DNA of 64,000 nt from Raillietiella orientalis. Lineage: Eukaryota. This document shows positions 4,817 to 52,893 of the stretch, in pieces (the first letter of the stretch is position 1; the number at the start of each line of letters is the position of its first letter). Location of the stretch: NCBI GenBank assembly GCA_036172245.1, contig JAYWIR010000015.1:1240001-1304000 (forward strand), in the 5' to 3' direction. The notes under the pieces were generated by a model. The model did no database searches. It saw only the letters and a program-made list of their open reading frames with translations, and had not been told where the DNA came from. A program made the translations under genes and the position numbers.

Positions 4817-5138
4817 CAGTTTTTCCCTCCTTCCCCTCTCAATCCTTGCCGACGAGCACCACATTTTGTTCTGATTCATCACAGAGGGAAGTGCAGTAAT
4901 CCAAAAGATGGTGAACTATGCCTTGCCAGGAAGAATCCAGAGGAAACTGGTGGAGGATCCTAACCTGCAAATTGGTCCTAAAAGCTGGGGTAGGGGGGAC
5001 ACCAGTCGGAGCATCTGGCAGCTGGGCTGCGAATATTCACCAGGGGTGGTTGACACTCGTGGAAGCGGAAAGAAAAGAGGGAATCTCACCCGGTGAAGTG
5101 AATGATTGGAGGCCTCGGAGCTGAAATGACCTCAAACG

Positions 5139-5184
5139 ATTCCCAAACTTTAAATAACTGGAAAGTCATTTAAGGTTTGGGAAT
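5139..5184. repeat. Short inverted repeat / hairpin with 17-bp arms
   Basis: ATTCCCAAACTTTAAAT (5139-5155) pairs with ATTTAAGGTTTGGGAAT (5168-5184), one mismatch (G-U on the + strand). Confidence 0.85.
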
Positions 5185-8077
5185 TTTCCTAAATGCTGAA
5201 TTCGGGCTGTCGGATCCATGAGTGGCCAGTGGGCCCATTTTGGTATGCAGAATTGGCTGTATTCAACTGAGGAATTAAGGATCTTCAAAAAGCAGCAGCA
5301 TTTGAGGAAACCAACGCAAACCCCACAACTCCCTTCAAACTTCCTACTGCGTGCGTCACTCAGCTCGCCCGCTGTTCTTCCGGTTAGTTTTGGAGGTTTC
5401 TGTGTTTCCACCTTTCACCTCAAGCCGTTCTTTCTCAGAGGGCGAGCGCCTCTCCTGAGCGACTTGGCCATCTCGTGGATGCCTCTCGAATACTTTGGCT
5501 AATACTATTTGGTCATTCTCCCTCTTTTCTTCACCTGCTCTTCCGCGCTCGCTCACTTCTCCTTGGAGACCTTCCAGTCATCAAAAAGGAAACAGATAAG
5601 GTCGCTGCCCCTTCCGCCGTGGGCACTTTCTCATCGACGAGCAGCCCTCTGGCGCTAAGCTACCGGGTAAGAATGACAAGATCTCCGTAACACTTTTTAA
5701 CCGTTTCTCGGTGAGGGCAGTGAATCATCGCATCGAGCGCGTGCGCCTAAAAGAGCCATAGGCAACCTTTCCTCAATGGGCCGCATGTCCGTTCCAGAAA
5801 CGTGAGGCTGACCGCAGTCCATTCGAGAAATGTACGGAGGGTCGCAATTTTAAACAGAAGGAACGCTGGTTGATTGAATTCAGGGTTTATGATGGGCAGA
5901 AATTTTAATCACTTATTTAGCTCTTTACGTTACGCGAATGGTCGCGAACTTCCCCGGTCCAGGTATTAGATGAGTTATTTTTCCGTGGCGCAACGTTAGG
6001 GTCATCCCACAGATAACCAAAATAATCCCAATGGGATCAAGGTCATGGATCCGACAATCCGAGTTACAGCGTTCCAGTACGACGGACTTCCCACTCGTTT
6101 CTGGTTTGAGTTCCAGGTCATTTCGGTCCTAAGGACTCTAATTGTTCGCTTTACTTCCCGGGTGAGACTCAGCTATCCTGAGGAGACAAGGAGGCTCTCG
6201 TGCTCTTTTCCTTTCTCTCCTAAGTGTGCCAGCTTCCTGAAGGAAACTTTCGGGAAACCAGCTGCTAGGCTGTGAGGATTTCTGCAAGGCTGCACAAGGG
6301 TTTCATCCTAACTGCGTCTTCATGCATTCCGTCATCTTCTGGAAATGTTGGTAAAAGCAAGAACGAAGTTCCTGCTGCTGCCAGTTCGTACGAGTGTTTC
6401 GTGAGTCGCTGATTCCAGCGGCAGTGCAACTGGAAGACCGGGTCAGACAGCAAAAGCGGCGTCCCCTCGACACCAGGCAGCTACCTGCATTCCAGTCACT
6501 TGGCAGCTCCACCTCACCTCATCGAAAAAGCTCTCTGCAATGCACAGCAGCAACATCAGAAGCTGCTGCACACTGAAACGTAGTTTGTCGCCCATCGTAG
6601 CGGCTTGGCATTCTAACAGGTTCTCAGGTCATCCGGAGGATACAAGAACTTTTTTCAAAGGATCGATAGAAGGCTTCCTTTAAGTGTTCAAAGTTCTCCC
6701 CATGTCCTTCATTTCCATTGGCAAAACACGCCCCTGACCAGATTTTCTCAGTGCAACTAGAATGATGTGTGCAATCTGCTGTCATTTCCTCCTCAACTTC
6801 CGGTAATTCTTCAGATAAATTTTGAAGTGCAAAAATCCCCCCTACCTTCGCTACCAGCACAACCCTAAAAGACTCACAGCGCGAAGTAATCCAAAAATTA
6901 CTGGAATGTTAGAGAATGCACTTCAACTGAGCACCTTCGAGGCTGGTTCCCAGTTGCCAACATCGCAGGAGAAGTGTTCAGCTTCAGATCTAAGGTCAAA
7001 CGGGAATCCGGAATTGTGACACGATTTCAAATTTGCACACTCGTTCGTGGGAATTTCCACATTCGTGGCACCTCAGATGGGAGACCGCATGACATTTTCA
7101 TCTTCATAACCATCTTCAACCTTCCAGCAAACATAGCGACCGCGTCATCAGGGTCCCTGTCCAGATGAAACGGAGGATGCGGATTCATGGGTCGCCTAGC
7201 GACAGGGCTTCCGTATGAAGCTACGGCTGCTTCGGCATTTGCACTCCCTGCCCAACGAGCCCGACACGAAACTCCCGCTGTTGCATTGGCCGAATGCAGC
7301 TTCCAGTTGGAATCAGCTTGCATCATTCCCATCATCCAGCGACGCGGGGCGACGCTGGCCCGTCCGAAACGCGATTCCAGGCGATATCCGCGGATGTCAA
7401 TCACGGCGAGCGATGGCGAAGACATCGACACGGAACAGAACTGCAATTCCAGAAACGGCAACTCTTTGCGGAACGTGTACTCATTCCACTGGGCGGGACT
7501 CAGAAACGCTTGCCAGAACGAGAGTGCGAGGAACCCGCGATCATGCATGCTACGTTGGGAGCCGAACGACCGCACCCGCACGCATTCCTGCACGCAGGAG
7601 CAAAGGGAAATGGGAGGAGACCCGGTGCGTTTCACCACCGGCACTCGCAGAAACTCCACCTGCTCTCGAACGGCCTCCACGCGGCAGGCGTTGCATTCTC
7701 TCGAAAAACGGAAACTCGCGTCTTCTGCGGTTGAGGATGTGGCATGCAAGCAGGCGAAGACGGCAACGACCTTGTACCCGCCGACACGCACGCCTCCTCA
7801 TGACACCGACTTCAAGGAGAACCACTCAGCTTTCGCAGGCCATTTTGACACGACGAGCGCCGCAAGCGTTCCCAAAGGCAAAGGTTCGTGTCGCGAAGCG
7901 GGCGTACGGAAAAGCAACCAGAAAGGCACTCCGGAGTCGAACGAGCACGCCTCGTCCATGCTCACACGGAAAAACAAGTCGAGGGCGTCCACCGGAAAAG
8001 GGGACGTGCGCCAGGGAAAGCGAATCGGGACGCGGCACCCAAGCTGAAAACGAAACCTCAGCATCAGAAGCTGACTT

Positions 8078-8083
8078 TTTATT
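8078..8083 (-). promoter_or_regulatory. Candidate poly(A) signal, CUB-like gene copy A
   Basis: TTTATT on + (AATAAA on -), ~220 nt past the stop codon; mirrored in copy B. Confidence 0.6.
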
Positions 8084-8298
8084 CCTCGCAGCAAACATGG
8101 CCGATGCGCAAACACCCCGAGAGCAGACGCCTTTTCAGGTCCTGGCAGCATCGGCTAAACAAGAAGAGGGTGGGGACGAAACCAGCCAACTTTTTCCGAA
8201 CCAGGTGGTCGTTGGTCAAGAGCATTCCTTCTATCCGGGCGACGAGGTGCTGGCGAAACCCACCAGCGTACGTTGGAACCACGTGCGCCATCTGGGGC

Positions 8299-11200
8299 TT
8301 AGCACGGATTCTGCGTATAGTCGATGCAGAAGCCGACAGCCAACACTTGAGCGATGTTTCCAATCGTTCGGAAAGGAAACCTGAACGGCAGCTGGTTAGC
8401 TACGGAAGCACCGAATGTCGTGCGGAACACGGCGGTGGTCACGGTGTTACTTACTGCACACCGGAGCAGGGACGGCGACGCCGCGACCGGGGGCCAACGT
8501 TCCTCCGCAGAATCTGTCCATCATGCAGTTTGCGTTCAGCATAGCTTGCGTGTTGCCACAAGCGATGGTCAAGAAATTCATGGTGCACATGTTGGCAACG
8601 CCGCTGTTTGCAGAGTTCATGTTGTTGACGTCCAGGTTGAAGCCGCGCGGTGGTGCGATGCACTGGTTCAGACAAATGGAGCAAAAGCCCAGCTCCCTCC
8701 GGACGCAAAACGTGTAGTCTTGGTTGACCAGAAGCGAAGGATTGTTTGGTATGGGAGCCGTGGCCAGCCAGTTGAAGGTTTGGAAACTCCCAGTGGATCC
8801 GATGAAGTACTGCAAACAGTTGGCAGGAGCTGCAAGAGACGCGTCCATCAGCAGGCAATGCGTCTCGAACCACCAGGAAGGGACTTGCGCGGCCGCGCAG
8901 CGTTCACTCGCGCTGCTCTTCCGCCCAACGAAAACGACCGCTGCAGGAGATCGGGCGCGCGATCCGAGGTCATCGAGGTCGGACGGAAGTGACGAGCAGG
9001 CGGACGCGCGCACGCGCTCTGTCCGCTTGTATGGGATGAGTGATCCTGCACCTCGGCCAGCAAGGTGTGAGTTACAGACGAACCACCCGTTCCCCCCATC
9101 CCGTTTCGCAAACCCTCCGCACCCTCTTCCCGGGTGCCTATTCCGGAAGTCGGCGCCTCCCTTCTCGTCCGTCCGCACACTCGCTTTCTCTATGCGCTGC
9201 ATTCCGCTGCCCTCCGCACACACGGAGCCCAACTCCCGTGTGCCCATTTCCCCTCTTCCGTTCGGAAAGTCCGCCACCGCGTTTTTCCCCTCCCCCGAGC
9301 ATCCCTGCCCGCTTCCGCGTCCGCCCTCCGGGAGCTGATGCCGAGAGGGCTCACTAAGCGGCTCCGCTGCCAAGCAGAAGGACGGAACGCTGGGCGCGTC
9401 CTTGGGACTCGGCTGCCGGAGAACGCGGAAAGGCGCGCTCGTCCCGTGGCCTCGGTCTGCCGACCCGGGAAGCGTGACCTCGGAAACGGAGTGCGGCGCG
9501 GAGTGGATAAGGAGTAAGGCATGGGACGCGCGCGCCACTCGAGCAGGATGGATAGGCACCTGCCGGGTCATCCGCGCTCTCGTCGACGCGCACGCCTTGG
9601 CGATGGGGACGCATTGCTCCCCCTACACTTTCATCTTAGCCAAAAGGCCGAGAAGCGACCGCCTAATAGTTGCACGCTGCCTGCACCTTCCTCCAAGAAC
9701 CTTCCAACGTCCCTAGCAAGCGTGCTTTCTCGCCTTCCAAGCAGCGGGTGACGAAAGTGGGCAGGTGGACGAGGAGAACGGTCCCGATTCTGGAAGGGTT
9801 GAGTTCCTCCCGGACGCTCCTTCCGAACTCTTTCCGACCAAAGAACTCAGGTTGTCCAGCTGCGACTTGCTGGCACACTGACCGACCGTCGAGGTCCGGT
9901 CGCTACGTGCCGGGACGAATGCGCCCACGAAGGCCGCAGTCGCACGCGACACCCAAAAGTGCACCTCGCGGCTTTCGAAAATCCGGGCGAGCGAATGGGG
10001 ACATACGGTAGGGCAGCGGGAGTGAAGAAGCGGCGCCAGGCCGTCGCGAGCGCTTGCACTCACCTGCGTAAGGAGCACCTTCCGGGATCTGAGAGATCAA
10101 AATGCTCCACTGTCGGGTGGCTGCGTTCGCTGCAGGAGGCATGCCGATTGTGAAGCTGGGGAGAATCCTATCGGAGCCGGTCCCACTGTCGACGTACACT
10201 GAAATGCAACGTGTCAGCAACGGGAGAGGCGCGAAGCGAAAGCGGCATCGTTCACAGACTTCGGTCACCTGGTTACCGGCGACTCCCAGGCGCGGACGTT
10301 TCCTCTCCTGCAGAAGACGTCCCACACTCGCAAACCGCCGGCGCCCCCTTTCCGTCCCCGGCTATCGTTCCGGATCCTTGCAAATCGCCCACCCGTCGTC
10401 ACTGTTCTTGCGCTTCTCCATGTCTTCAGCACCTGTTTCAGCTGCTCTGCCTCCCACGCGCACTGCGTTGCATTCGTGCTCCGCACGGGGGTGGATGTCT
10501 CTTGGCCTTACCCCGCTGCTCGTCCGATCTGTTCGCTGCGGACGGTTTCCCAGGTGCAGCCAAGTGGCTCCAGCTCGGTGTCCCGGGCACGTCGCGCGGG
10601 TGCTCTCGCTGGACATCCAGGAAAAGGGTAACGAAAAAATGCCGTTCCGGACGAAAACGAATCCGGCCCGCCCCCCGTCGTAGCCGCCCCTTCGAGACTT
10701 CTGCTCCCTTCGCGCTTGCGCACGCCACTTACTGTGCTGTCCGGTGTTCGTCCCGCAAATCACGGGAATGCTGCTCGATGACCCCGGAGCCACCACCGTG
10801 AACGTGTCCACCAGGCACATTCCGTTCCTGTTGTTTTGATTCAGCACGAACGAGAAGAAGAACAACCTGCAAAGAAGGGGAGCGTCGCAGCAGCTGAGAG
10901 TTTCTCGATGGGCGGTGTAGCCCCGAAGGGTGCGCAAATCGGGGAGCGGCCCTCCGGCGCTTCAGCACTCGGAGTCGCCACGTCGGTCAGGCGGGCGCTG
11001 TTTGCGGAGAGCGGCTGCGTCGTCCGGCGTCTTCGGCGCGCTCGGTGAGGCCCCGGGAACGCTGGCAGCGAGCGCCGAGGACCGAGGGCCGAGGACCTCG
11101 GCGACGGATCCGGGAGGCGGCGCATGACCGGGTCGGTAAGCGGGAAGCTCCCTGCTTCGGATAGGGAGGACGCCGGTTCGGTAGAAGCTGCGGGAGAAGC

Positions 11201-13660
11201 CGTCTGCCATTGCGCGTTCCCGCACCGCGGTCGACGCGCTTGCGCTCTTACGCGGGAACACCCCGCGCTTCTTCCGCACGGCTGTTGGACGTCGCCGCCG
11301 GCACCTCGGCCGGGACGACGACTCGTGTTCGACCGCTGGCACGCGGCGTCTTCCCCAGGCGGCTGCGGACGCGTGCGCGTTCGCTGGACCGATGACATCG
11401 GGAAGCCTGGTGCAATGGGACGGAAGCCGTGGCCCAGCCACACTGCCGCCGGCGCGAAGGAAGCAGTCGTTGCAAACCGTCCCGTCCGTTTTCCGTCAAG
11501 TTGGGATGGTGGAAGTGGTCGCCACATCAGCTGCCGATGTGGAAGATGGGAATCTTCGGCAGATTCCTTTGCCGCTCGCACCTCTTGTCGGTGACTGCCG
11601 GGTCCTGCTGTTGCGCGAGGGACCTGGCACGCTCGTGGTGGCTCCGCCTGGGATGCGCGCGCGCCGGACGGCGTTGCGCCCGGTGGCACTCGCCGGGCGG
11701 AACATTGGACCGTGCGGCTGCGGTTGCCAATCCCTTCGCAGAAGAGGGCGCGCCTCTCGATTGTCGAGGCCTCGCGAGAGAGCTGCGTGCCAAGCGGGCG
11801 AAGAGCCATGGTTCGGGAAAGAGGGAAAGCGTGCCTGGTCCGTGGCGCGAGAAGCTGAGCCGTTTGAGACGCACCAGCGACGCTTGGCCACCGCCACCAG
11901 CTGCCCGTCCCTGTTTTTGTCGCCTTTCCGGCGTCGCTCGCGGTCCCCTGCACGCATTCGAGAAGGCGGCTGGCTTTCTGGAGGAAGGGCGAGGGACTCG
12001 GGAACGAGGACGGGAACCTCTCTCTCTCACGCGAGAGGTGCGTGGAGCGTGCCTCTGCCGGCGATCGGCCGGCGGGAGTCTGCCGCGCCTCGAAAACAAG
12101 TCACCCGGCCACCCGGAGGGCGAGTTCGTGCCGCTGGTCAGTCGCCGACGGATTCCCACGGCCCCTAAGGGATGCCGCCATTCTCTATTCTCCTGCAGCG
12201 ACGGAACGAGGAGGGAATGCATTCAGAGCGCGCGCGCAGCGGGGCGACGTTTCGTTCGTTCCCCGGCGCGGGAGCTGCGTCGTTCCCGCACGATGGGGTA
12301 CGGGGTAGGGAGGATGCTTACTTGCCTGAACTGGCCGATCTGCTGGTTCATTTTCAGCACCGTCATCTGGCACTGCCCTAACGGGATGGTGGGCGTGGGA
12401 CTGGTGAAGTACGTGTTGTTAAAGTTGGTGATTCCGCCGCATGTCCTGGTCACTGAGAGCCACATCTCGCATGCTGGTTGCCGACTGCGGCGTAAGAATA
12501 CCTACGCAGCAAACCCCTATTCCTAGCACGCAGCTGTCTCGGGAGCTGCCTCCCTGCGCCAGGCATTGCGACTGCGACACGCAGGTGCCGTTGATGCCGT
12601 TCCTGTCCATGCAGGCGATGTTTTGGAAGCGGACGACGACGAGGGAGGACACTGGAAGAAGAAGGAGGAGGGTGTTTGGACGCGGGCGAGGAGGCGCAGA
12701 AGGAAGGCGTCGTCGCCGATGGGGGGGGTCCCGAGCGTTGACGGCAGTCCGCGCGGCACGGGACAGTCCCGCCGCGGGATGACGCCTCCCGGCGCTGCGG
12801 CGGGAGACGGGGACGTAGGCGGACGGGAGGGCTCGCCTGGCACCACGCGCGCGTTTCCGCGGAAGGTGGGCGCCAGCAGCAAGAAGTGTCGACGCGTCGC
12901 AGCGTGCGCGCGCGCGCGCGGGCATGCTGGTCGCGCGGAGAGTTCGGCCGGGGTGATGCGGAGGCCGCCTGCTCCGGAGGAAGCTGCTGATCGTTTTGCT
13001 CATCTCGGCGGCGCCTCTGCCTTCCGGGTGTCCTCCGGACGCTTCCTGCCTTCGCTGGCCAAGGCGGGCAAGCAGCGTGCGAAACGGGCGGGCACGGGGC
13101 GGTGCTGCTGGTCGCCGAGGGCGTTTCCTGCGGGGGGTCGGTCGGTAGTCGGTCGTGGGTGCGGGCGCGCCCAGCAGCCGCCACATTGACGAGGAGCGGA
13201 GGAGCGGCGCGGCGTTATCCTCTCCCTCTGCTCCTCCCGAGCGCATCCCGGGGAGCGCGTGGGTAGCGAGACGTGCGCGCCCGCGGGCTGTTCCGTCGCC
13301 GGGTGCTCCGCTGCCGAGTGGTGCGGCTTGGGCGCGCCCGTCTTTTCGTGGACGGAGCGCTCATGCCGGCTCGGTGCCTCCCGTCGCCGCGCTTGGCGTG
13401 CGCACGCGTCGCTTCTCCGCGGGCGCTGTCGTCCGGTGCGTACGAATGCGGCGGGGAACGCCACGTCCGTGCGGGACCGACTGCAAGCACCGGGATGGCT
13501 GGCGACACGCGCCGCCGACCGCCGCGCGACACGCGCCGCCAAAGACGCGCGCGGATGCTTCCTACTCACGAGATCGTGGTTTTCCGGAGGAAAGGGAGGA
13601 GGAGGCGTGTGCGCCGCAGGCGTGCAGCAAGCAGGTGACGAACGCCAGGGCGATCCACAT
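8299..13660 (-). CDS. Secreted Cys-rich tandem CUB-like domain protein, copy A (370 aa). Exons 13660-13570, 12651-12502, 12452-12326, 10866-10733, 10198-10064, 8829-8455, 8399-8299
   Basis: Phase-consistent splicing yields signal peptide MWIALAFVTCLLHACGAHA, then FQNIAC..NGTC..C..C..GVCC, TCGG..NNTYF, IPVICGTNTGQHMYVD, RQWSILISQI, APANCLQYF, NQDYTFCVRRELGFC, DRFCG, PF..GFCIDYTQNPC*. This is the motif order of the uncharacterised arthropod tandem CUB-domain proteins. Intron 3 uses a GC donor. Confidence 0.9.
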
Positions 13661-13781
13661 GGTCTTGGTCGTGCGTGCGGATTCTGCGGACCCGATAACA
13701 AGGGAGATGTGCGGATACATGGCCGCGCGCAACCGGCAGCGGCAAAAAAACTCACCTGCCCGCCCGCTGGCCTTCGCTCTC

Positions 13782-13788
13782 TTTTATA
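13782..13788 (-). promoter_or_regulatory. Candidate TATA box, CUB-like gene copy A
   Basis: TATAAAA on - strand ~125 nt upstream of the ATG in otherwise very GC-rich sequence, with CCAAT just upstream. Confidence 0.55.
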
Positions 13789-16700
13789 CGCGCTTTCGAT
13801 ATTGGGATGCGCTCTTTCGCCGCGTGATCCGGTTTCGCGGGACGGGGCGGCCGGGGTGCCTGTGACCCCTCGTGCGTCGCGCGAACGAGTTCGTGCCCGT
13901 TCACTCACTCGCTCGCGGCGTAAGACCCCGTTATCTTCGGGCTGAGTCTGAAAATAACGTGGCCCATATCGGGAGCGACGTTGGTGGACGGGGCCGAAAT
14001 CCGCCCGGTCGCCGGCAAAGAGCGCGGCGCCTTCTGGCAGAGGCGAGCCGAGTCCCTTCGCGGGCCGGACCGCGCCTCGGTTCGCTCGGCAGAACAGGAG
14101 ACGATGCGCGCCCCGATCCTCCCTTGCCGCGTGCGGCCACCGTCCACCAGAATTGAACCAGTGCTTGCCGGCGTCGGTCGCGGTTCGCTCGCCCCTCGAA
14201 GGACCTATGGGACCGAGCAGCGGCTGCGAGCTGCGACAGCGAGCTGATGTCCACCCCTGTTTGTTGCACGCGCGCGCTGCCCGCCGGGAGACGACGCGTT
14301 TCGCTGCGCAAAGCGCGCCCGGCCGTAGGTAAGACCCGGGAGGTGGTGTGCCCGCGGCGTCCTTGGCTTGCGCGCGCGCTGCTCGGCAACCTTCCTCGTT
14401 GCGAACGGGACAAGCGGGCTGCGGAGGGTGTCGGGCCTGCAGGTCGCGGTTGCGGGTGAGTCTGGAAGACGCGTCCGGGGGAGCGTCCTCGGTGGAGCTG
14501 GGTGCTCAGAATGCGGGAGACGCCGGCATCGTGGCGAAGGGCCGAAAGCTCGCATCCCAATCCGCAGTTGTTTGCTTGCTTCAGTGTGGTGGAGGTTCGT
14601 GTCGGGTGTTAAGTTTGTTTTTAGGTTGTCGCGTGTGGATTCCAGAGCATCGCGCAGGTTCTGCAAGTGGCAGTATTTGTCGAAGGAAACAAATGACCTT
14701 GGTCTTTACTTTGTCGATCAACGTTTTCATCAAGAGGGTTTTTCATGTGACTGCTGTTGGGTGTCCACTGACCTTTTCTGGCTTTCCTGGAACAGACGGA
14801 TCAGTAATGGTCGGAACACCTTGAGACGAGAAGTGTCCATTCGAGAGGTAAGTATTAGAAGAAGCCCGGCGTGCAGCATGTATTCCTAGCACAGGAAGCA
14901 CGAACCCTAATGTCTCTGATAAACGGTCACAAATGAGGTGTAGCCCTAAGATTCGATGGATTTTCTGTGACAGGAATTTGTGCCTTCTCATGGTTCGAGT
15001 ATGGAAGATTTGATCTCTGCCAACCCACATCCCTGTAGCATCAGCCTTGAAACGTGAAAAGAAGGAACTCTCTTCATAGCCTTAAGGTTTCCGAAAGCTT
15101 CAAAATGTAATTGTGGATTTTTAGATCAAGGACGAATTGCTGAGCGGCAATGGACTCCGAATGTGGGAACTATTTTGAGCGTGGCTACCATAGAAACGGA
15201 TCAGTCTTCGTTGGAGGGTACGCGTCTTCCTGATTACATCTATTACTCTGCCTGGATACTGTCAGTGTTGTGTGAGATCCTCTCGAAAGCCATTTTGATT
15301 TTCGATTCCACACGAGGATTCCACGTTCCCATCCAAAGTCTGATCCGCGAGTAGGAAACACTGAGATAGGAAACTCTTATTTTGAGAAAGTATTTGTCGG
15401 TGCTCCCCCTTTTTCAGAGATAATGCGGGAAGTTCTCGGCATACCTTCTGGATGGGTACTTGGTTGCTGCTTACGGGACCCTTTGGTCACTTAAGGGAAA
15501 CTATTCGTAGAGGATGCAGTGCACGATGAAACATTGCGATATCTTTATATGCATTTTGTGAGCATCTCATGCTCACATTTAGAAGGAAATGTTTTTTTTT
15601 TTTCCTCTGTAAGCTGTGATTGTATTTATTACACTACTATTTGGAAGAGGCTGACTCTACGAACTTTAGGTTTGAATACGACTGAGAAAAGCTCTGCATT
15701 GCTGTAGGATCTCAAGGCAGCCACAGACATTTGCTGTAATGTAGTTGGCTACTGCACTTGACCCTCGCAGAGTCAGCTGCAAACCTTTAAGGGATAGTGG
15801 CATAAACTGTATCATGCACTCCTTCCGGCTGGTTAACTTTATGAGTGCAGCTCCTATTGAATTTTACTTTTTTCTTTTCTTGGTTTCTCAGAGTCCTTTC
15901 TTCGTCCTCCCGATTGCTAAAGTCTATTATTGTCTATTGTGTTGCTATATAAATGTATTTATTACGGTTAGCCTCTTAAAGCCGTCTTGCCTCAAGTCTG
16001 GCTTTGCTGAGAAAGGCAGTGAGGCTCACTGTGGAGCGGTTTAAAGTGGCTCACCCCATTGCTTTGATTCCCAAACGAAGGCTTCCTCATACGCACCATC
16101 TCTGCCATCTTTTCAGTACAGAAGTTGCAAAGATTAAGAAACCATTCCTCGGAAGTGTTTCACCCCACCCGTTTCTAGTGTTTGTGGACGGAATCGGTCC
16201 ACTTTGTTTTTCATTCTTCTAGACAGGTCCACATCTGGCTATCAAGAGTCTACGACTTTTGAGAATCAAGCAGTCTTGAAAAGCACCAGTGCAGCAACAT
16301 TCTAAGACGTCCATACTTTTTGTAAGTCTATCCGTTTTGGAATTCAAGTGCTCACCTATCGTGAAATCATACGAGATTTTTTTTCGTTCACGTCGTGCCC
16401 ATTCCAAAACTTCCAAGTGCCCATGACATTGCTGTGCAGGAATCAAAGTGGACAAGACCAGTTGACCGGTGAACAGAATTTCTGGATTGGTTCCTTCTCG
16501 ACTTGCTCATTTGCTTTGCATTTCCTTATCGCCTTTTTCCTTTTAGTCTGCTCAACAGTTTTTGGTTCCATTCTCGCCACCTTCCTCACTGTCCTTAACG
16601 GAAGGAAACTCTGCAAATCCGCATCTCTAGGGCTCGAATCCAAAGTCCTTCCCCCCTCATCTGTCTGGGATGTGTACGCTGACTGAAAAAGCATCAACAT

Positions 16701-18859: not shown

Positions 18860-19250
18860 AGTGTAATTCTTCAGGATAGGGAGCACCCCAAGATGGCGGT
18901 CCTCCCTATAAATCCAGGAAGGGCTCGGAGTCCGTTCCTCTCACGCTTGGGGAGGGATCTCCCTTCAGGGGGTAACGCATCTCCCACCTTGATTGTCTCC
19001 GAAAGGAATTTCCTTCCTCATTCTCTCCGGAGGGAGCACCCCGGAAGGGGAGTGGTCCTCTCCATTTCAACTTCTCCGAAGGAACCCGGAAAGGATCCGC
19101 TTGTAGGAATTTCTTCTCCGGAGGGAACCCGCAGGAGAACAGCTCCTGTTCACTCCTCTGAAGAGAACCCCGAAGGGACGCTTCCGAAACTCAGAAGGGG
19201 CGCTGCAGCTTCACACAGGTTCTCGCTTGCTTCCTTGCACTCTGTGAAGA
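18860..19250 (-). repeat. Diverged, inverted copy of the 3' part of the 875 bp repeat (boundaries approximate)
   Basis: GGAATTTCTTCTCCGGAGGGAACCCGCAGGAGAACAGCTCC...CTGAAGAGAACCCCGAAGGGACGCTT (~19106-19183) aligns without gaps to the reverse complement of ~4506-4583 / ~21643-21720. Also visible as GISSPEGTRRRTAPVHSSEENPEGTL vs GISSAEGIRRGTALCDSPEESPEGTL. Weaker similarity extends to both sides. Confidence 0.8.
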
Positions 19251-21078: not shown

Positions 21079-21953
21079 GCAGCATCGCCCCAAACAAGGA
21101 AGCACCGAGCATTTCGCCTTCGTCGGCACAAGGCATCCATCCATCTCCTCTCTCCGAAGCCATCGCCGCCGAGCGTCACCGACAAACCCCTGCCCCGACC
21201 AGAAACGCTGCAGAGGCCCACGCCCCTTTCACCGCCTACGCTCGACCACGCTTCCACCTGCACACAAAGTGCGCAGCAACGAATCGCGAGCGCCCTGCAA
21301 ACGGCCTCCCAGCGGCTTCCGCAGCCTCTCTTCGGCAGACCGAACTCAACAAACGTGCAAAGGCTCTTGTCCTCCGTACAGCGACCCCGCAAGAAACGCG
21401 CGTGACTGTCGCCAGCGATCGTTCGCTAACACCCCGGTGTCCGCGCTGACAGACCGCGCTTGGAAACTGACCCTCCGGGATCCTTCCAGGAATCAAGGAA
21501 CCCTTCGGGGGCTCCCCTCTGGGGGTGAAAAAGGCACGTCCACTACGCACGATGCACATACCACACCTCGGAAAGAGTTGCCACCCCGGAGTGATAGGAA
21601 GCGCGTTGCTCCCTTCGAGTAGCACCCACCAGACAAATTCCAAAGCGTCCCTTCGGGGCTCTCTTCAGGAGAGTCACAAAGAGCGGTTCCCCTCCGGATT
21701 CCCTCCGCTGAAGAAATTCCCAAAGCGGCACCCTCCGGGGAACCCTCCGAAGAGAACAAGGAAGAGGTTTCCTTCGGGATTTCTTCTGGGAGATCCACTC
21801 TGAAGCATTCAACATACCATCTGATGCTGAGTGGTCAACAGCGAGCCATCACCCGACAGCAGAAGCCAGTTCCCCAACCCGAAAGGCGAAGCGAACCTCC
21901 CTTTCTGCATTCCCAGTAGCCCATCCCGAAACTTATCCGGAAAGGGAGGCAGG
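21079..21953 (+). repeat. Direct repeat copy 2 (~875 bp), abutting the right inverted arm
   Basis: Matches 3942-4816; ends in GGCAGG, overlapping by 2 nt the start of arm B (GGGATGCGAG at 21952). Confidence 0.97.
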
Positions 21954-22721
21954 GATGCGAGCTTTCGGCCCTTCGCCACGATGCCGGCGTCTCCCGCATT
22001 CTGAGCACCCAGCTCCACCGGGGACGCTCCCCCGGACGCGTCTTCCAGACTCACCCGCAACCGCGACCTGCAGGCCCGACACCCTCCGCAGCCCGCTTGT
22101 CCCGTTCGCAACGAGGAAGGTTGCCGAGCAGCGCGCGCGCAAGCCAAGGACGCCGCGGGCACACCACCTCCCGGGTCTTACCTACGGCCGGGCGCGCTTT
22201 GCGCAGCGAAACGCGTCGTCTCCCGGCGGGCAGCGCGCGCGTGCAACAAACAGGGGTGGACATCAGCTCGCTGTCGCAGCTCGCAGCCGCTGCTCGGTCC
22301 CATAGGTCCTTCGAGGGGCGAGCGAACCGCGACCGACGCCGGCAAGCACTGGTTCAATTCTGGTGGACGGTGGCCGCACGCGGCAAGGGAGGATCGGGGC
22401 GCGCATCGTCTCCTGTTCTGCCGAGCGAACCGAGGCGCGGTCCGGCCCGCGAAGGGACTCGGCTCGCCTCTGCCAGAAGGCGCCGCGCTCTTTGCCGGCG
22501 ACCGGGCGGATTTCGGCCCCGTCCACCAACGTCGCTCCCGATATGGGCCACGTTATTTTCAGACTCAGCCCGAAGATAACGGGGTCTTACGCCGCGAGCG
22601 AGTGAGTGAACGGGCACGAACTCGTTCGCGCGACGCACGAGGGGTCACAGGCACCCCGGCCGCCCCGTCCCGCGAAACCGGATCACGCGGCGAAAGAGCG
22701 CATCCCAATATCGAAAGCGCG

Positions 22722-22728
22722 TATAAAA
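22722..22728 (+). promoter_or_regulatory. Candidate TATA box, CUB-like gene copy B
   Basis: TATAAAA at 22722, CCAAT at 22705-22709, ATG at 22850. Confidence 0.55.
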
Positions 22729-22849
22729 GAGAGCGAAGGCCAGCGGGCGGGCAGGTGAGTTTTTTTGCCGCTGCCGGTTGCGCGCGGCCATGTATCCGCA
22801 CATCTCCCTTGTTATCGGGTCCGCAGAATCCGCACGCACGACCAAGACC

Positions 22850-25800
22850 ATGTGGATCGCCCTGGCGTCCGTCACCTGCTTGCTGCACGCCTGCGGCGCA
22901 CACGCCTCCTCCTCCCTTTCCTCCGGAAAACCACGATCTCGTGAGTAGGAAGCATCCGCGCGCGTCTTTGGCGGCGCGTGTCGCGCGGCGGTCGGCGGCG
23001 CGTGTCGCCAGCCATCCCGGTGCTTGCAGTCGGTCCCGCACGGACGTGGCGTTCCCCGCCGCATTCGTACGCACCGGACGACAGCGCCCGCGGAGAAGCG
23101 ACGCGTGCGCACGCCAAGCGCGGCGACGGGAGGCACCGAGCCGGCATGAGCGCTCCGTCCACGAAAAGACGGGCGCGCCCAAGCCGCACCACTCGGCAGC
23201 GGAGCACCCGGCGACGGAACAGCCCGCGGGCGCGCACGTCTCGCTACCCACGCGCTCCCCGGGATGCGCTCGGGAGGAGCAGAGGGAGAGGATAACGCCG
23301 CGCCGCTCCTCCGCTCCTCGTCAATGTGGCGGCTGCTGGGCGCGCCCGCACCCACGACCGACTACCGACCGACCCCCCGCAGGAAACGCCCTCGGCGACC
23401 AGCAGCACCGCCCCGTGCCCGCCCGTTTCGCACGCTGCTTGCCCGCCTTGGCCAGCGAAGGCAGGAAGCGTCCGGAGGACACCCGGAAGGCAGAGGCGCC
23501 GCCGAGATGAGCAAAACGATCAGCAGCTTCCTCCGGAGCAGGCGGCCTCCGCATCACCCCGGCCGAACTCTCCGCGCGACCAGCATGCCCGCGCGCGCGC
23601 GCGCACGCTGCGACGCGTCGACACTTCGTGCTGCTGGCGCCCACCTTCCGCGGAAACGCGCGCGTGGTGCCAGGCGAGCCCTCCCGTCCGCCTACGTCCC
23701 CGTCTCCCGCCGCAGCGCCGGGAGGCGTCATCCCGCGGCGGGACTGTCCCGTGCCGCGCGGACTGCCGCCAACGCTCGGGACCCCCCCCATCGGCGACGA
23801 CGCCTTCCTTCTGCGCCTCCTCGCCCGCGTCCAAACACCCTCCTCCTTCTTCTTCCAGTGTCCTCCCTCGTCGTCGTCCGCTTCCAAAACATCGCCTGCA
23901 TGGACAGGAACGGCATCAACGGCACCTGCGTGTCGCAGTCGCAATGCCTGGCGCAGGGAGGCAGCTCCCGAGACAGCTGCGTGCTAGGAATAGGGGTTTG
24001 CTGCGTAGGTATTCTTACGCCGCAGTCGGCAACCAGCATGCGAGATGTGGCTCTCAGTGACCAGGACATGCGGCGGAATCACCAACTTTAACAACACGTA
24101 CTTCACCAGTCCCACGCCCACCATCCCGTTAGGGCAGTGCCAGATGACGGTGCTGAAAATGAACCAGCAGATCGGCCAGTTCAGGCAAGTAAGCATCCTC
24201 CCTACCCCGTACCCCATCGTGCGGGAACGACGCAGCTCCCGCGCCGGGGAACGAACGAAACGTCGCCCCGCTGCGCGCGCGCTCTGAATGCATTCCCTCC
24301 TCGTTCCGTCGCTGCAGGAGAATATAGAATGGCGGCATCCCTTAGGGGCCGTGGGAATCCGTCGGCGACTGACCAGCGGCACGAACTCGCCCTCCGGGTG
24401 GCCGGGGTATCTTGCTTCGAGGTGGCAGACCCTTGCCGCCGATCGCCGGCAGAGGCACGCTCCACGCACCTCTCGCGTGAGAGAGAGAGGTTCCCGTCCT
24501 CGTTCCCGAGTCCCTCGCCCTTCCTCCAGAAAGCCAGCCGCCTTCTCGAATGCGTGCAGGGGACCGCGAGCGACGCCGGAAAGGCGACGAAAACAGGGAC
24601 GGGCAGCTGGTGGCGGTGGCCAAGCGTCGCTGGTGCGTCTCAAACGGCTCAGCTTCTCGCGCCACGGACCAGGCACGCTTTCCCTCTTTCCCGAACCATG
24701 GCTCTTCGCCCGCTTGGCACGCAGCTCTCTCGCGAGGCCTCGACAATTGAGAGGCGCGCCCTCTTCTGCGAAGGGATTGGCAACCGCAGCCGCACGGTCC
24801 AATGTTCCGCCCGGCGAGTGCCACCGGGCGCAACGCCGTCCGGCGCGCGCGCATCCCAGGCGGAGCCACCACGAGCGTGCCAGGTCCCTCGCGCAACAGC
24901 AGGACCCGGCAGTCACCGACAAGAGGTGCGAGCGGCAAAGGAATCTGCCGAAGATTCCCATCTTCCACATCGGCAGCTGATGTGGCGACCACTTCCACCA
25001 TCCCAACTGGACGGAAAACGGACGGGACGGGTTTGCAACGACTGCTTCCCGTGCCGGCGGTGTGGCTGGGCCACGGCTTCCGTCCCATTGCACCAGGCTT
25101 CCCGATGTCGAATGGTCCGAAGGAACGCGCACGCGTCCGCAGCCGCCTGGGGAAGACGCCGCGTGCCAGCGGTCGAACACGAGTCGTCGTCCCGGCCGAG
25201 GCGCCGGCGGCGACGTCCAACAGCCGTGCGGAAGAAGCGCGGGGTGTTCCCGCGTAAGAGCGCAAGCGCGTCGACCGCGGTGCGGGAACGCGCAATGGCA
25301 GACGGCTTCTCCCGCAGCTTCTACCGAACCGGCGTCCTCCCTATCCGAAGCAGGGAGCTTCCCGCTTACCGACCCGGTCATGCGCCGCCTCCCGGATCCG
25401 TCGCCGAGTTCCTCGGCCCTCGGTCCTCGGCGCTCGCTGCCAGCGTTCCCGGGGCCTCACCGAGCGCGCCGAAGACGCCGGACGACGCAGCCGCTCTCCG
25501 CAAACAGCGCCCGCCTGACCGACGTGGCGACTCCGAGTGCTGAAGCTCCGGAGGGCCGCTCCCCGATTTGCGCACCCTTCGGGGCTACACCGCCCATCGA
25601 GAAACTCTCAGCTGCTGCGACGCTCCCCTTCTTTGCAGGTTGTTCTTCTTCTCGTTCGTGCTGAATCAAAACAACAGGAACGGAATGTGCCTGGTGGACA
25701 CGTTCACGGTGGTGGCTCCGGGGTCATCGAGCAGCATTCCCGTGATTTGCGGGACGAACACCGGACAGCACAGTAAGTGGCGTGCGCAAGCGCGAAGGGA

Positions 25801-28208
25801 GCAGAAGTCTCGAAGGGGCGGCTACGACGGGGGGCGGGCCGGATTCGTTTTCGTCCGGAACGGCATTTTTTCGTTACCCTTTTCCTGGATGTCCAGCCGA
25901 GAGCACCCGCGCGACGTGCCCGGGACACCGACAAGGCTCACCTTTGGCTGCACCTGGGAAACCGTCCGCAGCGAACAGATCGGACGAGCAGCGGGGTAAG
26001 GCCAAGAGACATCCACCCCCGTGCGGAGCACGAATGCAGCGCAGTGCGCGTGGGAGGCAGAGCAGCTGAAACAGGTGCTGAAGACATGGAGAAGCGCAAG
26101 AACAGTGACGACGGGTGGGCGATTTGCAAGGATCCGGAACGATAGCCGGGGACGGAAAGGGGGCGCCGGCGGTTTGCGAGTGTGGGACGTCTTCTGCAGG
26201 AGAGGAAACGTCCGCGCCTGGGAGTCGCCGGTAACCAGGTGACCGAAGTCTGTGAACGATGCCGCTTTCGCTTCGCGCCTCTCCCGTTGCTGACACGTTG
26301 CATTTCAGTGTACGTCGACAGTGGGACCGGCTCCGATAGGATTCTCCCCAGCTTCACAATCGGCATGCCTCCTGCAGCGAACGCAGCCACCCGACAGTGG
26401 AGCATTTTGATCTCTCAGATCCCGGAAGGTGCTCCTTACGCAGGTGAGTGCAAGCGCTCGCGACGGCCTGGCGCCGCTTCTTCACTCCCGCTGCCCTACC
26501 GTATGTCCCCATTCGCTCGCCCGGATTTTCGAAAGCCGCGAGGTGCACTTTTGGGTGTCGCGTGCGACTGCGGCCTTCGTGGGCGCATTCGTCCCGGCAC
26601 GTAGCGACCGGACCTCGACGGTCGGTCAGTGTGCCAGCAAGTCGCAGCTGGACAACCTGAGTTCTTTGGTCGGAAAGAGTTCGGAAGGAGCGTCCGGGAG
26701 GAACTCAACCCTTCCAGAATCGGGACCGTTCTCCTCGTCCACCTGCCCACTTTCGTCACCCGCTGCTTGGAAGGCGAGAAAGCACGCTTGCTAGGGACGT
26801 TGGAAGGTTCTTGGAGGAAGGTGCAGGCAGCGTGCAACTATTAGGCGGTCGCTTCTCGGCCTTTTGGCTAAGATGAAAGTGTAGGGGGAGCAATGCGTCC
26901 CCATCGCCAAGGCGTGCGCGTCGACGAGAGCGCGGATGACCCGGCAGGTGCCTATCCATCCTGCTCGAGTGGCGCGCGCGTCCCATGCCTTACTCCTTAT
27001 CCACTCCGCGCCGCACTCCGTTTCCGAGGTCACGCTTCCCGGGTCGGCAGACCGAGGCCACGGGACGAGCGCGCCTTTCCGCGTTCTCCGGCAGCCGAGT
27101 CCCAAGGACGCGCCCAGCGTTCCGTCCTTCTGCTTGGCAGCGGAGCCGCTTAGTGAGCCCTCTCGGCATCAGCTCCCGGAGGGCGGACGCGGAAGCGGGC
27201 AGGGATGCTCGGGGGAGGGGAAAAACGCGGTGGCGGACTTTCCGAACGGAAGAGGGGAAATGGGCACACGGGAGTTGGGGTCCGTGTGTGCGGAGGGCAG
27301 CGGAATGCAGCGCATAGAGAAAGCGAGTGTGCGGACGGACGAGAAGGGAGGCGCCGACTTCCGGAATAGGCACCCGGGAAGAGGGTGCGGAGGGTTTGCG
27401 AAACGGGATGGGGGGAACGGGTGGGTCGTCTGTAACTCACACCTTGCTGGCCGAGGTGCAGGATCACTGATCCCATACAAGCGGACAGAGCGCGTGCGCG
27501 CGTCCGCCTGCTCGTCACTTCCGTCCGACCTCGATGACCTCGGATCGCGCGCCCGATCTCCTGCAGCGGTCGTTTTCGTTGGGCGGAAGAGCAGCGCGAA
27601 CGAACGCTGCGCGGCCGCGCAAGTCCCTTCCTGGTGGTTCGAGACGCATTGCCTGCTGATGGACGCGTCTCTTGCAGCTCCTGCCAACTGTTTGCAGTAC
27701 TTCATCGGATCCACTGGGAGTTTCCAAACCTTCAACTGGCTGGCCACGGCTCCCATACCAAACAATCCTTCGCTTCTGGTCAACCAAGACTACACGTTTT
27801 GCGTCCGGAGGGAGCTGGGCTTTTGCTCCATTTGTCTGAACCAGTGCATCGCTCCACCGCGCGGCTTCAACCTGGACGTCGCCAACATGAACTCTGCAAA
27901 CAGCGGCGCTGCCAACATGTGCACCATGAATTTCTTGACTATCGCTTGTGGCAACACGCAAGCTATGCTGAACGCAAACTGCATGATGGACAGATTCTGC
28001 GGAGGAACGTTGGCCCCCGGTCGCGGCGTCGCCGCCCCTGCTCCGGTGTGCAGTAAGTAACACCGTGACCACCGCCGTGTTCCGCACGACATTCGGTGCT
28101 TCCGTAGCTAACCAGCTGCCGTTCAGGTTTCCTTTCCGAACGATTGGAAACATCGCTCAAGTAAATGCCGTCGGCTTCTGCATCGACTATACGCAGAATC
28201 CGTGCTAA
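22850..28208 (+). CDS. Secreted Cys-rich tandem CUB-like domain protein, copy B (370 aa). Exons 22850-22940, 23859-24008, 24058-24184, 25639-25772, 26309-26443, 27678-28052, 28108-28208
   Basis: Exon lengths 91+150+127+134+135+375+101 = 1113 nt, all phases compatible, no internal stop. Signal peptide MWIALASVTCLLHACGAHA; same motifs as copy A; ends GFCIDYTQNPC-TAA. Introns 918, 49, 1454 (GC-AG), 536, 1234, 55 nt. Confidence 0.9.
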
Positions 28209-28425
28209 GCCCCAGGTGGCGCACGTGGTTCCAACGTGCGCTGGTAGGTTTCGCCAGCACCTCGTCGCCCGGATAGAAGGAATGCTCTTGACCAACGACC
28301 ACCTGGTTCCGAAAAAGTTGGCCAGTTTCGTCCCCGCCCTCTTCTTGTTTAGCCGATGCTGCCAGGACCTGAAAAGGCGTCTGCTCTGTCGGGGTGTTTG
28401 CGCATCGGCCATGTTTGCTGCGAGG

Positions 28426-28431
28426 AATAAA
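28426..28431 (+). promoter_or_regulatory. Candidate poly(A) signal, CUB-like gene copy B
   Basis: AATAAA ~220 nt downstream of the TAA at 28206-28208. Confidence 0.6.
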
Positions 28432-30781
28432 AAGTCAGCTTCTGATGCTGAGGTTTCGTTTTCAGCTTGGGTGCCGCGTCCCGATTCGCTTTCCCTGGCG
28501 CACGTCCCCTTTTCCGGTGGACGCCCTCGACTTGTTTTTCCGTGTGAGCATGGACGAGGCGTGCTCGTTCGACTCCGGAGTGCCTTTCTGGTTGCTTTTC
28601 CGTACGCCCGCTTCGCGACACGAACCTTTGCCTTTGGGAACGCTTGCGGCGCTCGTCGTGTCAAAATGGCCTGCGAAAGCTGAGTGGTTCTCCTTGAAGT
28701 CGGTGTCATGAGGAGGCGTGCGTGTCGGCGGGTACAAGGTCGTTGCCGTCTTCGCCTGCTTGCATGCCACATCCTCAACCGCAGAAGACGCGAGTTTCCG
28801 TTTTTCGAGAGAATGCAACGCCTGCCGCGTGGAGGCCGTTCGAGAGCAGGTGGAGTTTCTGCGAGTGCCGGTGGTGAAACGCACCGGGTCTCCTCCCATT
28901 TCCCTTTGCTCCTGCGTGCAGGAATGCGTGCGGGTGCGGTCGTTCGGCTCCCCACGTAGCATGCATGATCGCGGGTTCCTCGCACTCTCGTTCTGGCAAG
29001 CGTTTCTGAGTCCCGCCCAGTGGAATGAGTACACGTTCCGCAAAGAGTTGCCGTTTCTGGAATTGCAGTTCTGTTCCGTGTCGATGTCTTCGCCATCGCT
29101 CGCCGTGATTGACATCCGCGGATATCGCCTGGAATCGCGTTTCGGACGGGCCAGCGTCGCCCCGCGTCGCTGGATGATGGGAATGATGCAAGCTGATTCC
29201 AACTGGAAGCTGCATTCGGCCAATGCAACAGCGGGAGTTTCGTGTCGGGCTCGTTGGGCAGGGAGTGCAAATGCCGAAGCAGCCGTAGCTTCATACGGAA
29301 GCCCTGTCGCTAGGCGACCCATGAATCCGCATCCTCCGTTTCATCTGGACAGGGACCCTGATGACGCGGTCGCTATGTTTGCTGGAAGGTTGAAGATGGT
29401 TATGAAGATGAAAATGTCATGCGGTCTCCCATCTGAGGTGCCACGAATGTGGAAATTCCCACGAACGAGTGTGCAAATTTGAAATCGTGTCACAAGTCCG
29501 TGCTCACTTTTAAATGTGGACCTGAAATTGCGAATGGTAACAGCTTTCAACTTCTGCGTGGATATATATGGAAGCGTTGCTAATCTCCATTTGGGTGGTT
29601 ATTCTTTGTATTGGTGATGAATTAAATGGCACGGATACGCGTTCCCCTAATCCGCGCACCTGTTTGTCTTTCGTTTTGTTGCTATTGCAGTGTAGTGAAA
29701 AGGGAACTTTGTTTTTTTATTGGTCTTGGCTCGCATGGTTGCTTGCTTTGTGTTTTTTATGTGCTCGTTTCACGAAGTTGGTGTTAGGAAACACTAGTGT
29801 ACTGAGCAACATGGTTTGTTGTTAAAGTCATTTAGGTGCTTGTATGGTCACCTGTCTGCTTCTGGATGTTATTTACCTTCAAGATTTCCAGGTATCACTC
29901 TTTTTATGAAGTTTTATCAGATGTCTGCCAATTCCGATGTTCGCTAAGGGTGGGGGGTTGAGTTCTTTCGTTGCCTACGAAAGCGTGTCATGCGAAGAAT
30001 GCAAAGTAACTTTTCTTCAACTTTTCCTTGACTGCTAACCTTTGGTTGGAAAACAGTTCAATCATATGTGTGGTTTCACTCGAAGAAATTGATGTTTACA
30101 TGCACTCGGTTCTGGTAGTCTATGTAAACTTTTTGCGATACATTTATTTTTAGTCGAGTGCCCATGTTTTCCCATTATGGTCCTCTTGAAATGAAATCGA
30201 ACTTCGATTCCATAAATTTACCGTTGACGTGAGTCCTTTGTATTTTTCGAGATCTCGCGGGAAGCAACTGCAATATTAGCAGCGGCCCTAAACGTATGTG
30301 TACTTAAAAGCAGGATTTGTAATAAATCGTGGAAGTGAAGATGGGAAGGACTTGTTTCAGCATCAACCAATTAGAGATAAATGAAAAGAATTCCATAGCT
30401 AAATACTGCTGGAGAATATTCCTATGCTGACGCAAAGCGACGTGCGATTTGGATTTTCAAAATTCTATTGTAATGGAAGCTCTCACCGAGTTCCTTCGTT
30501 CCCGCCTTGTTATTTACAGCGAAGAATTTGAATTTTTCCGATGACATTCACAGAATTTTTAATAGATTCACACTCAATGAGTGTTTGGCTTGACATGAGA
30601 CATTTGGGAATGGTCATCAAAGCCGGCACCTATTGAGAAAAAGTTTCTGGTTCTCACTAGGACAGACAATTCATCTGTCTTTATCGTGTTATCACTCTTT
30701 ATGCTGACAATGAACACAATCGCTGAGTGTTTATACTGTGATTCCAGAGATCAGCTACATTAATGGTGGAGAACCCCGAAC

Positions 30782-30820
30782 CCTTTAAAAACTGAAACAG
30801 CTGTTTCAGCTTTTTAAAGG
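30782..30820. repeat. Near-perfect 39-bp palindrome
   Basis: CCTTTAAAAACTGAAACAG|CTGTTTCAG(C)TTTTTAAAGG: self-complementary except one extra C, no spacer. Confidence 0.9.
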
Positions 30821-52723: not shown

Positions 52724-52893
52724 GAATGGGGCGGGGGGAAGGGAGGAGAGACAAACATGCTGACCCTGCTGGGGAGCTTCGAAGGAGCGGTGAAAAGGTC
52801 TCCAGCAAGCTCGGTCGCCGTGGTACCCGGTCCATCTTCGATCATCATCTACCTCCCTCCCCCAACCGATCGCTCCAGGGAAAAGGCGACCCG
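52724..52893 (+). repeat. Diverged direct repeat unit 2 (~170 bp)
   Basis: Homologous to 51936-52132 with indels and several substitutions. Confidence 0.93.

What the first reader, a model, noticed from the sequence alone, without database searches (positions are those of the whole stretch)
7014..29495. 22.5 kb palindrome-like unit with two intact, head-to-head copies of a secreted CUB-like gene
Seen: two 7.5 kb inverted arms around a 7393-nt spacer. Each arm spans a whole transcription unit (~0.9 kb upstream of the ATG with TATA, 7 exons, poly(A) signal, ~1 kb downstream), and both frames are open. Established: large inverted repeats can be homogenised by arm-to-arm gene conversion, and crossing-over between arms inverts the spacer. 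Inference: a young or actively maintained dosage-doubling unit, possibly with a polymorphic spacer orientation. An assembly artefact (two haplotypes placed inverted) is the main alternative.
Basis: partly seen in the sequence, partly recalled or inferred. Interest (0 to 1): 0.8.

Follow-up and report, generated by a model that had tools for sequence, protein, structure and literature searches.

The report
Inverted twin of a CUB-like gene
An arthropod-type gene for a secreted CUB-fold protein sits here twice as near-identical mirror-image copies, most likely because a duplicated block was later partly flipped and the copies have since exchanged sequence; this is a known kind of structure and one of several in this genome and gene family.

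Summary
Observation confirmed: arms 7014-14558 and 21952-29495 (99.0%), 7393-nt spacer, two open 370-codon frames with intact splice sites. Repeat plus arm B form one 8.4-kb GC-rich donor whose copy lies split into a direct piece and an inverted piece. Simplest history: local duplication, then inversion of 4817-14558. Differences are patchy (6 of 34 events hold 47 of 79 differing columns) and both outer ends have ~30-nt diverged extensions, which fits gene conversion; error-prone repair is the rival. The locus is not unusual here: the sister paralogue on contig C6 and three more family loci are also head-to-head inverted pairs (5 of 29 units), as are two trypsin loci, and 1 of 8 arbitrary 50-kb windows holds a 10-kb palindrome. 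The scan noted many such palindromes before on other DNA of this genome. No reads were listed, so artefact, expression, dosage and spacer flipping are untested. Known kind; modest interest.

The parts
7014..14558 (-). Arm A (probably the derived copy), 64% GC
8299..13660 (-). Gene copy A, coding exons 13570-13660, 12502-12651, 12326-12452, 10733-10866, 10064-10198, 8455-8829, 8299-8399; 370 aa, open
14559..21951 (.). Spacer, 7393 nt: 14559-21078 at 46% GC with no evident gene (stop-to-stop frames only), a 1-kb high-copy repeat at about 18645-19650, then direct-repeat copy R2
21079..21953 (+). R2: 875-nt direct-repeat copy, contiguous with arm B (2-nt overlap); upstream part of the 8417-nt donor block 21079-29495
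21952..29495 (+). Arm B (probably the parental copy), 64% GC
22850..28208 (+). Gene copy B, coding exons 22850-22940, 23859-24008, 24058-24184, 25639-25772, 26309-26443, 27678-28052, 28108-28208; 370 aa, hydrophobic N-terminus, 24 Cys, no long membrane segment
3942..4816 (+). R1: direct copy of R2; 845 nt identical, last 30 nt with 7 mismatches; about 30 nt of diverged homology continues to the left
4817..7013 (.). Segment Y between R1 and arm A; under the preferred model it was inverted together with arm A; holds 28S-rRNA-derived repeat pieces
6983..7013 (-). Diverged extension of the arms beyond the outer boundary (19 of 31 nt match 29496-29526)
7005..7010 (+). 6-nt word repeated at 14559-14564, flanking arm A like a target-site duplication

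Best explanation
A real local segmental duplication. An 8.4-kb GC-rich block (21079-29495: 875 nt of upstream DNA plus the whole CUB-like gene) was copied about 17 kb upstream. The copy was then cut 0.9 kb above the ATG by an inversion of 4817-14558 (or in the same coupled repair event), leaving the 875-nt piece in direct and the 7.5-kb gene piece in inverted, head-to-head orientation. Inversion makes the pair stable, because a crossover between inverted arms flips the spacer instead of deleting a gene. Arm-to-arm gene conversion keeps most of the arms near-identical while short islands and the ends keep older divergence. SHOWN: the anatomy, both open frames, adjacency of the two pieces on the donor, clustering of differences, diverged end extensions. 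INFERRED: order of events, B as parent, conversion, stability, expression of both copies.
For: R2 ends at 21953 and arm B starts at 21952; R1's end followed by the reverse complement of A's inner end reproduces the R2/B junction, and both pieces are ~99% identical to the donor. The donor coincides with the GC-rich domain, change points 21042 and 29374. 6 of 34 difference events have three or more substitutions and hold 47 of 79 differing columns; random scatter gives 0.47 such clusters and reached five in 0 of 5000 trials. Spacing of events is over-dispersed (p=0.03). Both outer ends of the copy continue as ~30-nt homology of 61-72% (p<=0.01 and p<=0.003 against shuffles). At two multi-base replacement codons (281, 357) B keeps the residue of the C6 paralogue. 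Other family palindromes show older strata outside a near-identical core: C6 falls 96 to 73 to 58% over 200 nt; C49 has a 2.3-kb outer stratum at 88.9%.
Against: Homology does not extend detectably beyond the ~30-nt blocks (p=0.55 and 0.52), so they may be priming sites of a young repair event, not remnants of an old duplicate. The 6-nt repeat flanking arm A (chance 0.002 by my post-hoc test) suits direct insertion of A, not inversion. The largest difference-free gap is not significant (p=0.08). At codon 290 it is A that matches C6, and codons 7 and 332 are uninformative. No repeat spanning a predicted pre-inversion junction was found (both regions single-copy). No outgroup genome, population data or reads.
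Confidence: 0.55

Rival explanations
1. Young single templated-insertion event without later conversion: a break at the 6-nt word was repaired by copying arm B backwards, primed by 31 nt of imperfect homology, with R1 copied in the same template-switching episode; the multi-base clusters are errors of repair synthesis.
For: 6-nt flanking repeat; end homology limited to ~30 nt; sharp inner boundary with no homology; two complex coding changes are derived in A. A 19/31 match occurs at about 2e-5 per offset, so a search over tens of kb could find one. Clustered mutation in break-induced repair is recalled, not checked in a paper here.
Against: Does not explain by itself why R1 and A end at adjacent bases of the donor; 34 scattered events imply some age; C6 and C49 show graded strata.
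Confidence: 0.27
2. Ancient palindrome inherited from the common ancestor of the C15 and C6 genes and kept alike by conversion ever since.
For: The C15 pair and the C6 pair are sister clades (97/93); both are intact head-to-head pairs with the same six intron phases; arms reach 898 and 927 nt above the ATG; the two loci differ at 61 of 93 four-fold sites.
Against: The split donor indicates that the inverted orientation arose locally at C15; upstream and downstream DNA of the two loci show no significant similarity (p=0.14, 0.50; only intron 5 reached p=0.01); palindromes recur elsewhere in the family, so coincidence has a prior of roughly 5-17%.
Confidence: 0.08
3. Assembly or amplification artefact: two haplotypes placed inverted, or a whole-genome-amplification fold-back chimera.
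For: Palindromes are frequent in this assembly; contig C198 is an 11-kb 100% palindrome whose left part duplicates the end of C21 at 100%, showing assembly trouble at such sites. Amplification chimeras are mostly inverted with a deletion and mostly intramolecular (PMC1855051, passages).
Against: A fold-back from one molecule gives identical arms and one junction; here there are 79 differing columns, four junctions, unique flanks on both sides and a separate direct piece. No N in the window. The unit has no further copy in the assembly. Near-identical inverted pairs are unevenly spread over gene families, which a random chimera process does not predict.
Confidence: 0.1

Closest known systems
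Gene-bearing palindromes of primate sex chromosomes (e.g. human Y P8 with VCY; PMC6790999, passages read)
   Same: Two near-identical inverted arms, one gene copy in each, a unique spacer of a few kb; conversion between arms; lability by rearrangement.
   Different: Arms here are 7.5 kb and 99.0% with divergence islands (P8: 38.0 and 37.4 kb); chromosome type unknown; conversion inferred from one sequence only; a direct piece of the same donor lies outside the palindrome.
Inversions with inverted duplications at breakpoints in Drosophila (PMC1885836, passages read)
   Same: Arthropod; inverted duplication of genes coupled to an inversion (17 of 29 inversions in that paper).
   Different: The staggered-break model gives inverted copies only and does not predict the 875-nt direct piece adjoining the arm.
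Palindromic collinear blocks of Folsomia candida (PMC5490193, passages read)
   Same: Arthropod genome with several gene-bearing palindromes.
   Different: Those are multi-gene blocks with a wide range of Ks and the authors reject concerted evolution; here single genes at 97-100% identity.
Duplicates under interlocus gene conversion with divergence peaks (PMC3924837, passages read)
   Same: Near-identity broken by short highly diverged stretches; higher conversion between close paralogues.
   Different: Five of the six clusters here lie in introns or the 3' UTR, so they are not evidently selected functional peaks.
Arthropod 'CUB domain-containing' proteins (UniRef100_A0A7R9NGL3 Argulus, A0A8J2RTN5 Daphnia; uncharacterised Lepeophtheirus, Rhipicephalus, Nymphon proteins)
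   Same: Exon 6 matches a 25-sequence family profile at 99.8% probability; 146 of 385 columns identical and 22 of 24 Cys shared with the Argulus protein.
   Different: No function known; no Pfam hit for any single exon of this gene.

Membership tests
Gene-bearing palindrome (large inverted repeat) | Two long inverted arms at about 99% or more with a unique spacer | tested here: met
   7545/7544 nt, 99.0%, 7393-nt spacer; spacer start single-copy in the assembly
Gene-bearing palindrome (large inverted repeat) | An intact gene in each arm | tested here: met
   370 aa open frames, splice sites intact, 5 replacement and 4 silent codons
Gene-bearing palindrome (large inverted repeat) | Exists on single DNA molecules with double depth | not testable with these tools
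   No sequencing run was listed
Conversion-maintained palindrome (primate Y/X type) | Arm-to-arm gene conversion shown against an outgroup or by shared polymorphism | tested here: inconclusive
   Indirect only: clustered differences, diverged end extensions, strata at C6 and C49; no outgroup or population data
Conversion-maintained palindrome (primate Y/X type) | Spacer inversion polymorphism by crossover between arms | not testable with these tools
   One assembly, no reads
Conversion-maintained palindrome (primate Y/X type) | GC-biased conversion raising GC in arms | tested here: inconclusive
   At C15 the GC-rich domain matches the duplicated block, but C49, C39 and C9 arms are no richer than their flanks, unduplicated 52-64 kb is 61% GC, and exon-6 GC3 (0.72) is below that of single-copy paralogues on C5, C23, C24 (0.86-0.94)
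Fold-back chimera of whole-genome amplification | Identical arms, one junction, intervening deletion | tested here: not met
   79 differing columns, four junctions, unique flanks
Transposon-flanked duplication | Terminal repeats or a repeat-family member at the arm ends | tested here: not met
   Junction regions 29200-32300, 14559-16200 and 2700-4000 are single-copy; repeats near 7014 map to 4901-5257 and 5983-6170, not the junction
Arthropod CUB-like secreted proteins | Sequence profile match and conserved cysteines | tested here: met
Arthropod CUB-like secreted proteins | CUB fold | tested here: inconclusive
   Tested on the relative P0003, not on this protein: model pLDDT 83.5, all-beta after a small N-terminal module; best matches are tandem-CUB proteins PCPE-1, cubilin, MASP, neuropilin (E 2e-11 to 6e-9), single CUB domains at TMt 0.65-0.69. 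Pfam CUB over its cut-off in 2 of 11 relatives, 0 of 7 exons of this gene
Arthropod CUB-like secreted proteins | Signal peptide, no membrane anchor | tested here: inconclusive
   Hydrophobic N-terminus (11-residue hydropathy 2.16), highest later 19-residue value 1.65; no signal-peptide predictor was run; possible upstream ATG

The most novel reading that the evidence does not exclude
This genome repeatedly fixes duplicates of secreted multigene families as head-to-head palindromes (5 of 29 units of this family and 2 trypsin loci, all 7 with the 5' ends inward; none seen in 229 rows of five other families), and this locus preserves the route: a deletion-prone direct duplicate turned into a stable, conversion-maintained palindrome by a local inversion, with the head-to-head orientation favoured because convergent copies would make read-through double-stranded RNA.
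Probability: 0.2. Interest if true: 0.55.

Novelty: new member of a known kind. Interest (0 to 1): 0.32.

Why it matters
As a single locus it is an ordinary, well-formed inverted gene duplicate. Its value is as a worked example of how palindromes can be born (a step that PMC6790999 says has had little attention): the leftover direct piece records a direct-to-inverted change. With the C6, C49, C39 and C198 loci it offers a small natural series for measuring conversion and orientation bias in an arthropod genome that is rich in palindromes. It also makes two cheap predictions: a spacer-flipped allele, and a 17-kb deletion allele (through R1/R2) that removes copy A.

Tried and rejected
Reads: the look-up of sequencing runs listed none for window 12000-21999; none was listed, which is no evidence either way, so depth, junction support and expression are open. 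Word-index protein search with exon 6 found nothing; the full HMMER search did. Pfam on the seven exons: 0 of 7. An early idea that R1's right flank is homologous to the inner end of arm B was dropped (p=0.40, p=0.61). No significant homology between X or Y and the spacer except one weak Y/spacer alignment (score 53 against shuffle maximum 45, 30 shuffles), not followed up. Multi-base clusters are not micro-inversions of nearby sequence (0 of 6). No exon remnants of a third copy in 104 kb around the locus. GC-biased conversion as a general cause of the arms' GC: not supported by three other palindromes; weak/strong asymmetry among isolated differences 13 to 5, unpolarised. Protein selection: 5 replacement and 4 silent codons, too few to test. 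Enrichment over trypsins is not significant (p=0.23). My first C6 gene model used a wrong acceptor and was corrected. The surroundings of the C76 and C5 paralogues were not examined beyond 0.6 kb. Literature searches showed no paper on this protein family or on head-to-head bias in arthropod palindromes; the library lacks most subscription papers, so this is weak.
Full report
OBSERVATION. The window is G000:C15:1240001-1304000 of a 210-Mb, 491-contig genome; relatives of the gene are arthropod proteins. Self-comparison shows one long inverted match, 7009-14558 against 29500-21952, 99.03%, 79 differing columns in 34 events between 7014-14558 and 21952-29495, and a 7393-nt spacer. Each arm holds seven coding exons that give 370 codons and a stop; splice sites are intact in both; the copies differ at 5 replacement and 4 silent codons. 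TATA and AATAAA lie inside both arms. The unit has no other copy in the assembly. It lies between AT-rich, small-intron housekeeping genes (SCAMP; TRAPP component, PEBP, ubiquitin-like).

THE PROTEIN. No single exon hits Pfam (0 of 7). Exon 6 finds 365 relatives at E<=0.001; of ten looked up, six carry names, from Argulus, Daphnia, Lepeophtheirus (two), Rhipicephalus and Nymphon, two of them 'CUB domain-containing'. Exon 6 matches a profile of 25 relatives at 99.8% and the whole product shares 22 of 24 cysteines with the Argulus protein. A model of that relative (pLDDT 83.5) matches tandem-CUB proteins best. So 'secreted CUB-like' is fair, by proxy; its function is unknown.

An 875-nt direct repeat, R1 3942-4816 and R2 21079-21953, ends where arm B begins, with a 2-nt overlap; R1's end plus the reverse of arm A's inner end restores the R2/B junction. 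R2 plus B is therefore one 8417-nt donor, which is also the local GC-rich domain (change points 21042 and 29374). Its copy lies in two pieces of opposite orientation. Two independent duplications would not be expected to end at adjacent bases; a direct duplication followed by (or coupled with) inversion of 4817-14558 explains it. This is inference: searches for a repeat spanning a pre-inversion junction found both regions single-copy. Against it, arm A is flanked by a 6-nt repeat (chance 0.002, post hoc), which would suit a direct insertion.

AGE AND CONVERSION. Six of 34 events contain three or more substitutions and hold 47 of 79 columns; random scatter gives 0.47 clusters. Identity by 500-nt bin runs from 95.8 to 100%. 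The R core is identical over 845 nt (0.02 at the arms' event rate). Both outer ends of the copy continue for about 30 nt at 61-72% but not beyond. These are the marks expected of conversion between older copies (PMC3924837, passages), but also of one homology-primed, error-prone repair event (recalled). B keeps the C6 residue at two of the three informative codons, so A is probably the derived copy.

CONTEXT IN THE GENOME. Exon 6 has 35 matches among 40 scored candidates (lower bound). Leaving out the C21 hit, which is identical to an arm of C198, ten of 34 lie in five head-to-head inverted pairs: C15; C6 (4.9-kb arms, 97.7%); C49 (11.9 kb, 99.6%); C39 (7.0 kb, 98.8%); C198 (11 kb, 100%), that is 5 of 29 units. 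For 18 hits only about 0.5-2.8 kb was fetched, so arms lacking exon 6 would be missed; intact frames were checked only at C15 and C6. In a tree of 34 of the 35 hits (the partial hit C2:723121 left out) plus five outside relatives, each pair groups with itself, and C15 and C6 are sisters (97/93) though 61 of 93 four-fold sites differ. C6 fades from 96 to 58% at its outer edge and C49 has an 88.9% outer stratum; the four C39, C49 and C198 boundaries tested were sharp. Controls, judged by eye from same-score rows on opposite strands: homeodomain 0 of 90 rows, cuticle 0 of 14, P450 0 of 19, Ras 0 of 51, GPCR 0 of 55 (rows are exons, and the last three used stricter E-value limits); trypsin, 101 rows that I grouped into about 40 loci, two pairs confirmed by sequence, C16 (99.9%, the right copy probably lacks the first exon) and C5 (96.8%). 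The family exceeds those five families (p=1e-5 on rows) but not trypsins (p=0.23); family members are not independent. All seven pairs have 5' ends inward (sign test 0.016); a partial 5' copy on C39 faces its gene the other way. Of eight arbitrary 50-kb windows one held a palindrome (C9, 10.4-kb arms, 99.6%), 20,829 of 400,000 bases (interval for windows 0.3-53%). Earlier scan notes list many more on other DNA of this genome (173 of 1383 notes fit my words; unchecked).

ARTEFACT. No run was listed. Amplification chimeras are mostly intramolecular inversions with a deletion (PMC1855051, passages) and should give identical arms and one junction; this locus has clustered differences, four junctions and unique flanks. 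C198 duplicating the end of C21 at 100% shows that the assembly does struggle at perfect palindromes. I put artefact at about 0.1.

MECHANISM AND VERDICT. Most likely a real local duplication turned into a head-to-head palindrome, with conversion between arms (0.55); a young single repair event without later conversion (0.27); artefact (0.10); palindrome inherited from the C15/C6 ancestor (0.08). Two expressed copies would double the dose of a secreted protein, but nothing here shows expression. GC-biased conversion is unresolved. The structure is a new member of a known kind (PMC6790999, PMC1885836, PMC5490193; passages only, no supplements read; Rozen et al. 2003 seen only as cited in these). 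Interest is modest; the family-level recurrence and orientation bias are the part worth a genome-wide test.

Noticed in passing
window 4899-5257 and 5983-6170: Degenerate 28S rRNA piece (Rfam RF02543, 51 bits) that is part of a ~360-nt dispersed repeat with dozens of copies at 67-76% identity: a candidate rRNA-derived SINE-like family; a mammalian rRNA-derived SINE is described in PMC4994717 (search listing only).
   Followed up: partly
window 18645-19650: About 1-kb high-copy repeat, at least 39 other copies at 82-91%; older relatives lie inside R1/R2. No terminal structure examined.
   Followed up: partly
G000:C198:1-30000 and G000:C21:3355001-3366644: The end of contig C21 is 100% identical to the first 13 kb of C198, a small contig that is itself an 11-kb perfect palindrome with a 467-nt tandem repeat at its inner junction: redundant or broken assembly at a palindrome.
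   Followed up: partly
G000:C6:5823408-5823606: The C6 spacer holds decayed pieces (76-79%) of an intron and the 3' UTR of the same gene, the remains of an older tandem copy.
   Followed up: partly
G000:C12, C49, C39, C198: One subfamily (19 tree rows, lower GC3) lies in kilobase-long homologous blocks at 75-89% identity that include non-coding DNA: a spreading duplicon; two hits in it carry in-frame stops.
   Followed up: partly
window 1-64000 and sampled contigs: Strong GC compartments: 32-38% housekeeping blocks with ~50-nt introns beside 60-68% blocks.
   Followed up: no
window 35063-36329: Two long open frames (208 and 222 aa) head-to-head with the TRAPP gene; the first has no Pfam hit.
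   Followed up: partly
window 51933-52132 / 52721-52893 and 62533-62691: A diverged ~200-nt direct repeat (78.5%) and an acidic GAT/GAA-rich low-complexity tract with stops in the GC-rich tail.
   Followed up: no
window 24185 and 12325: Intron 3 has a GC donor in both copies; the C6 paralogue has GT at the same place.
   Followed up: yes
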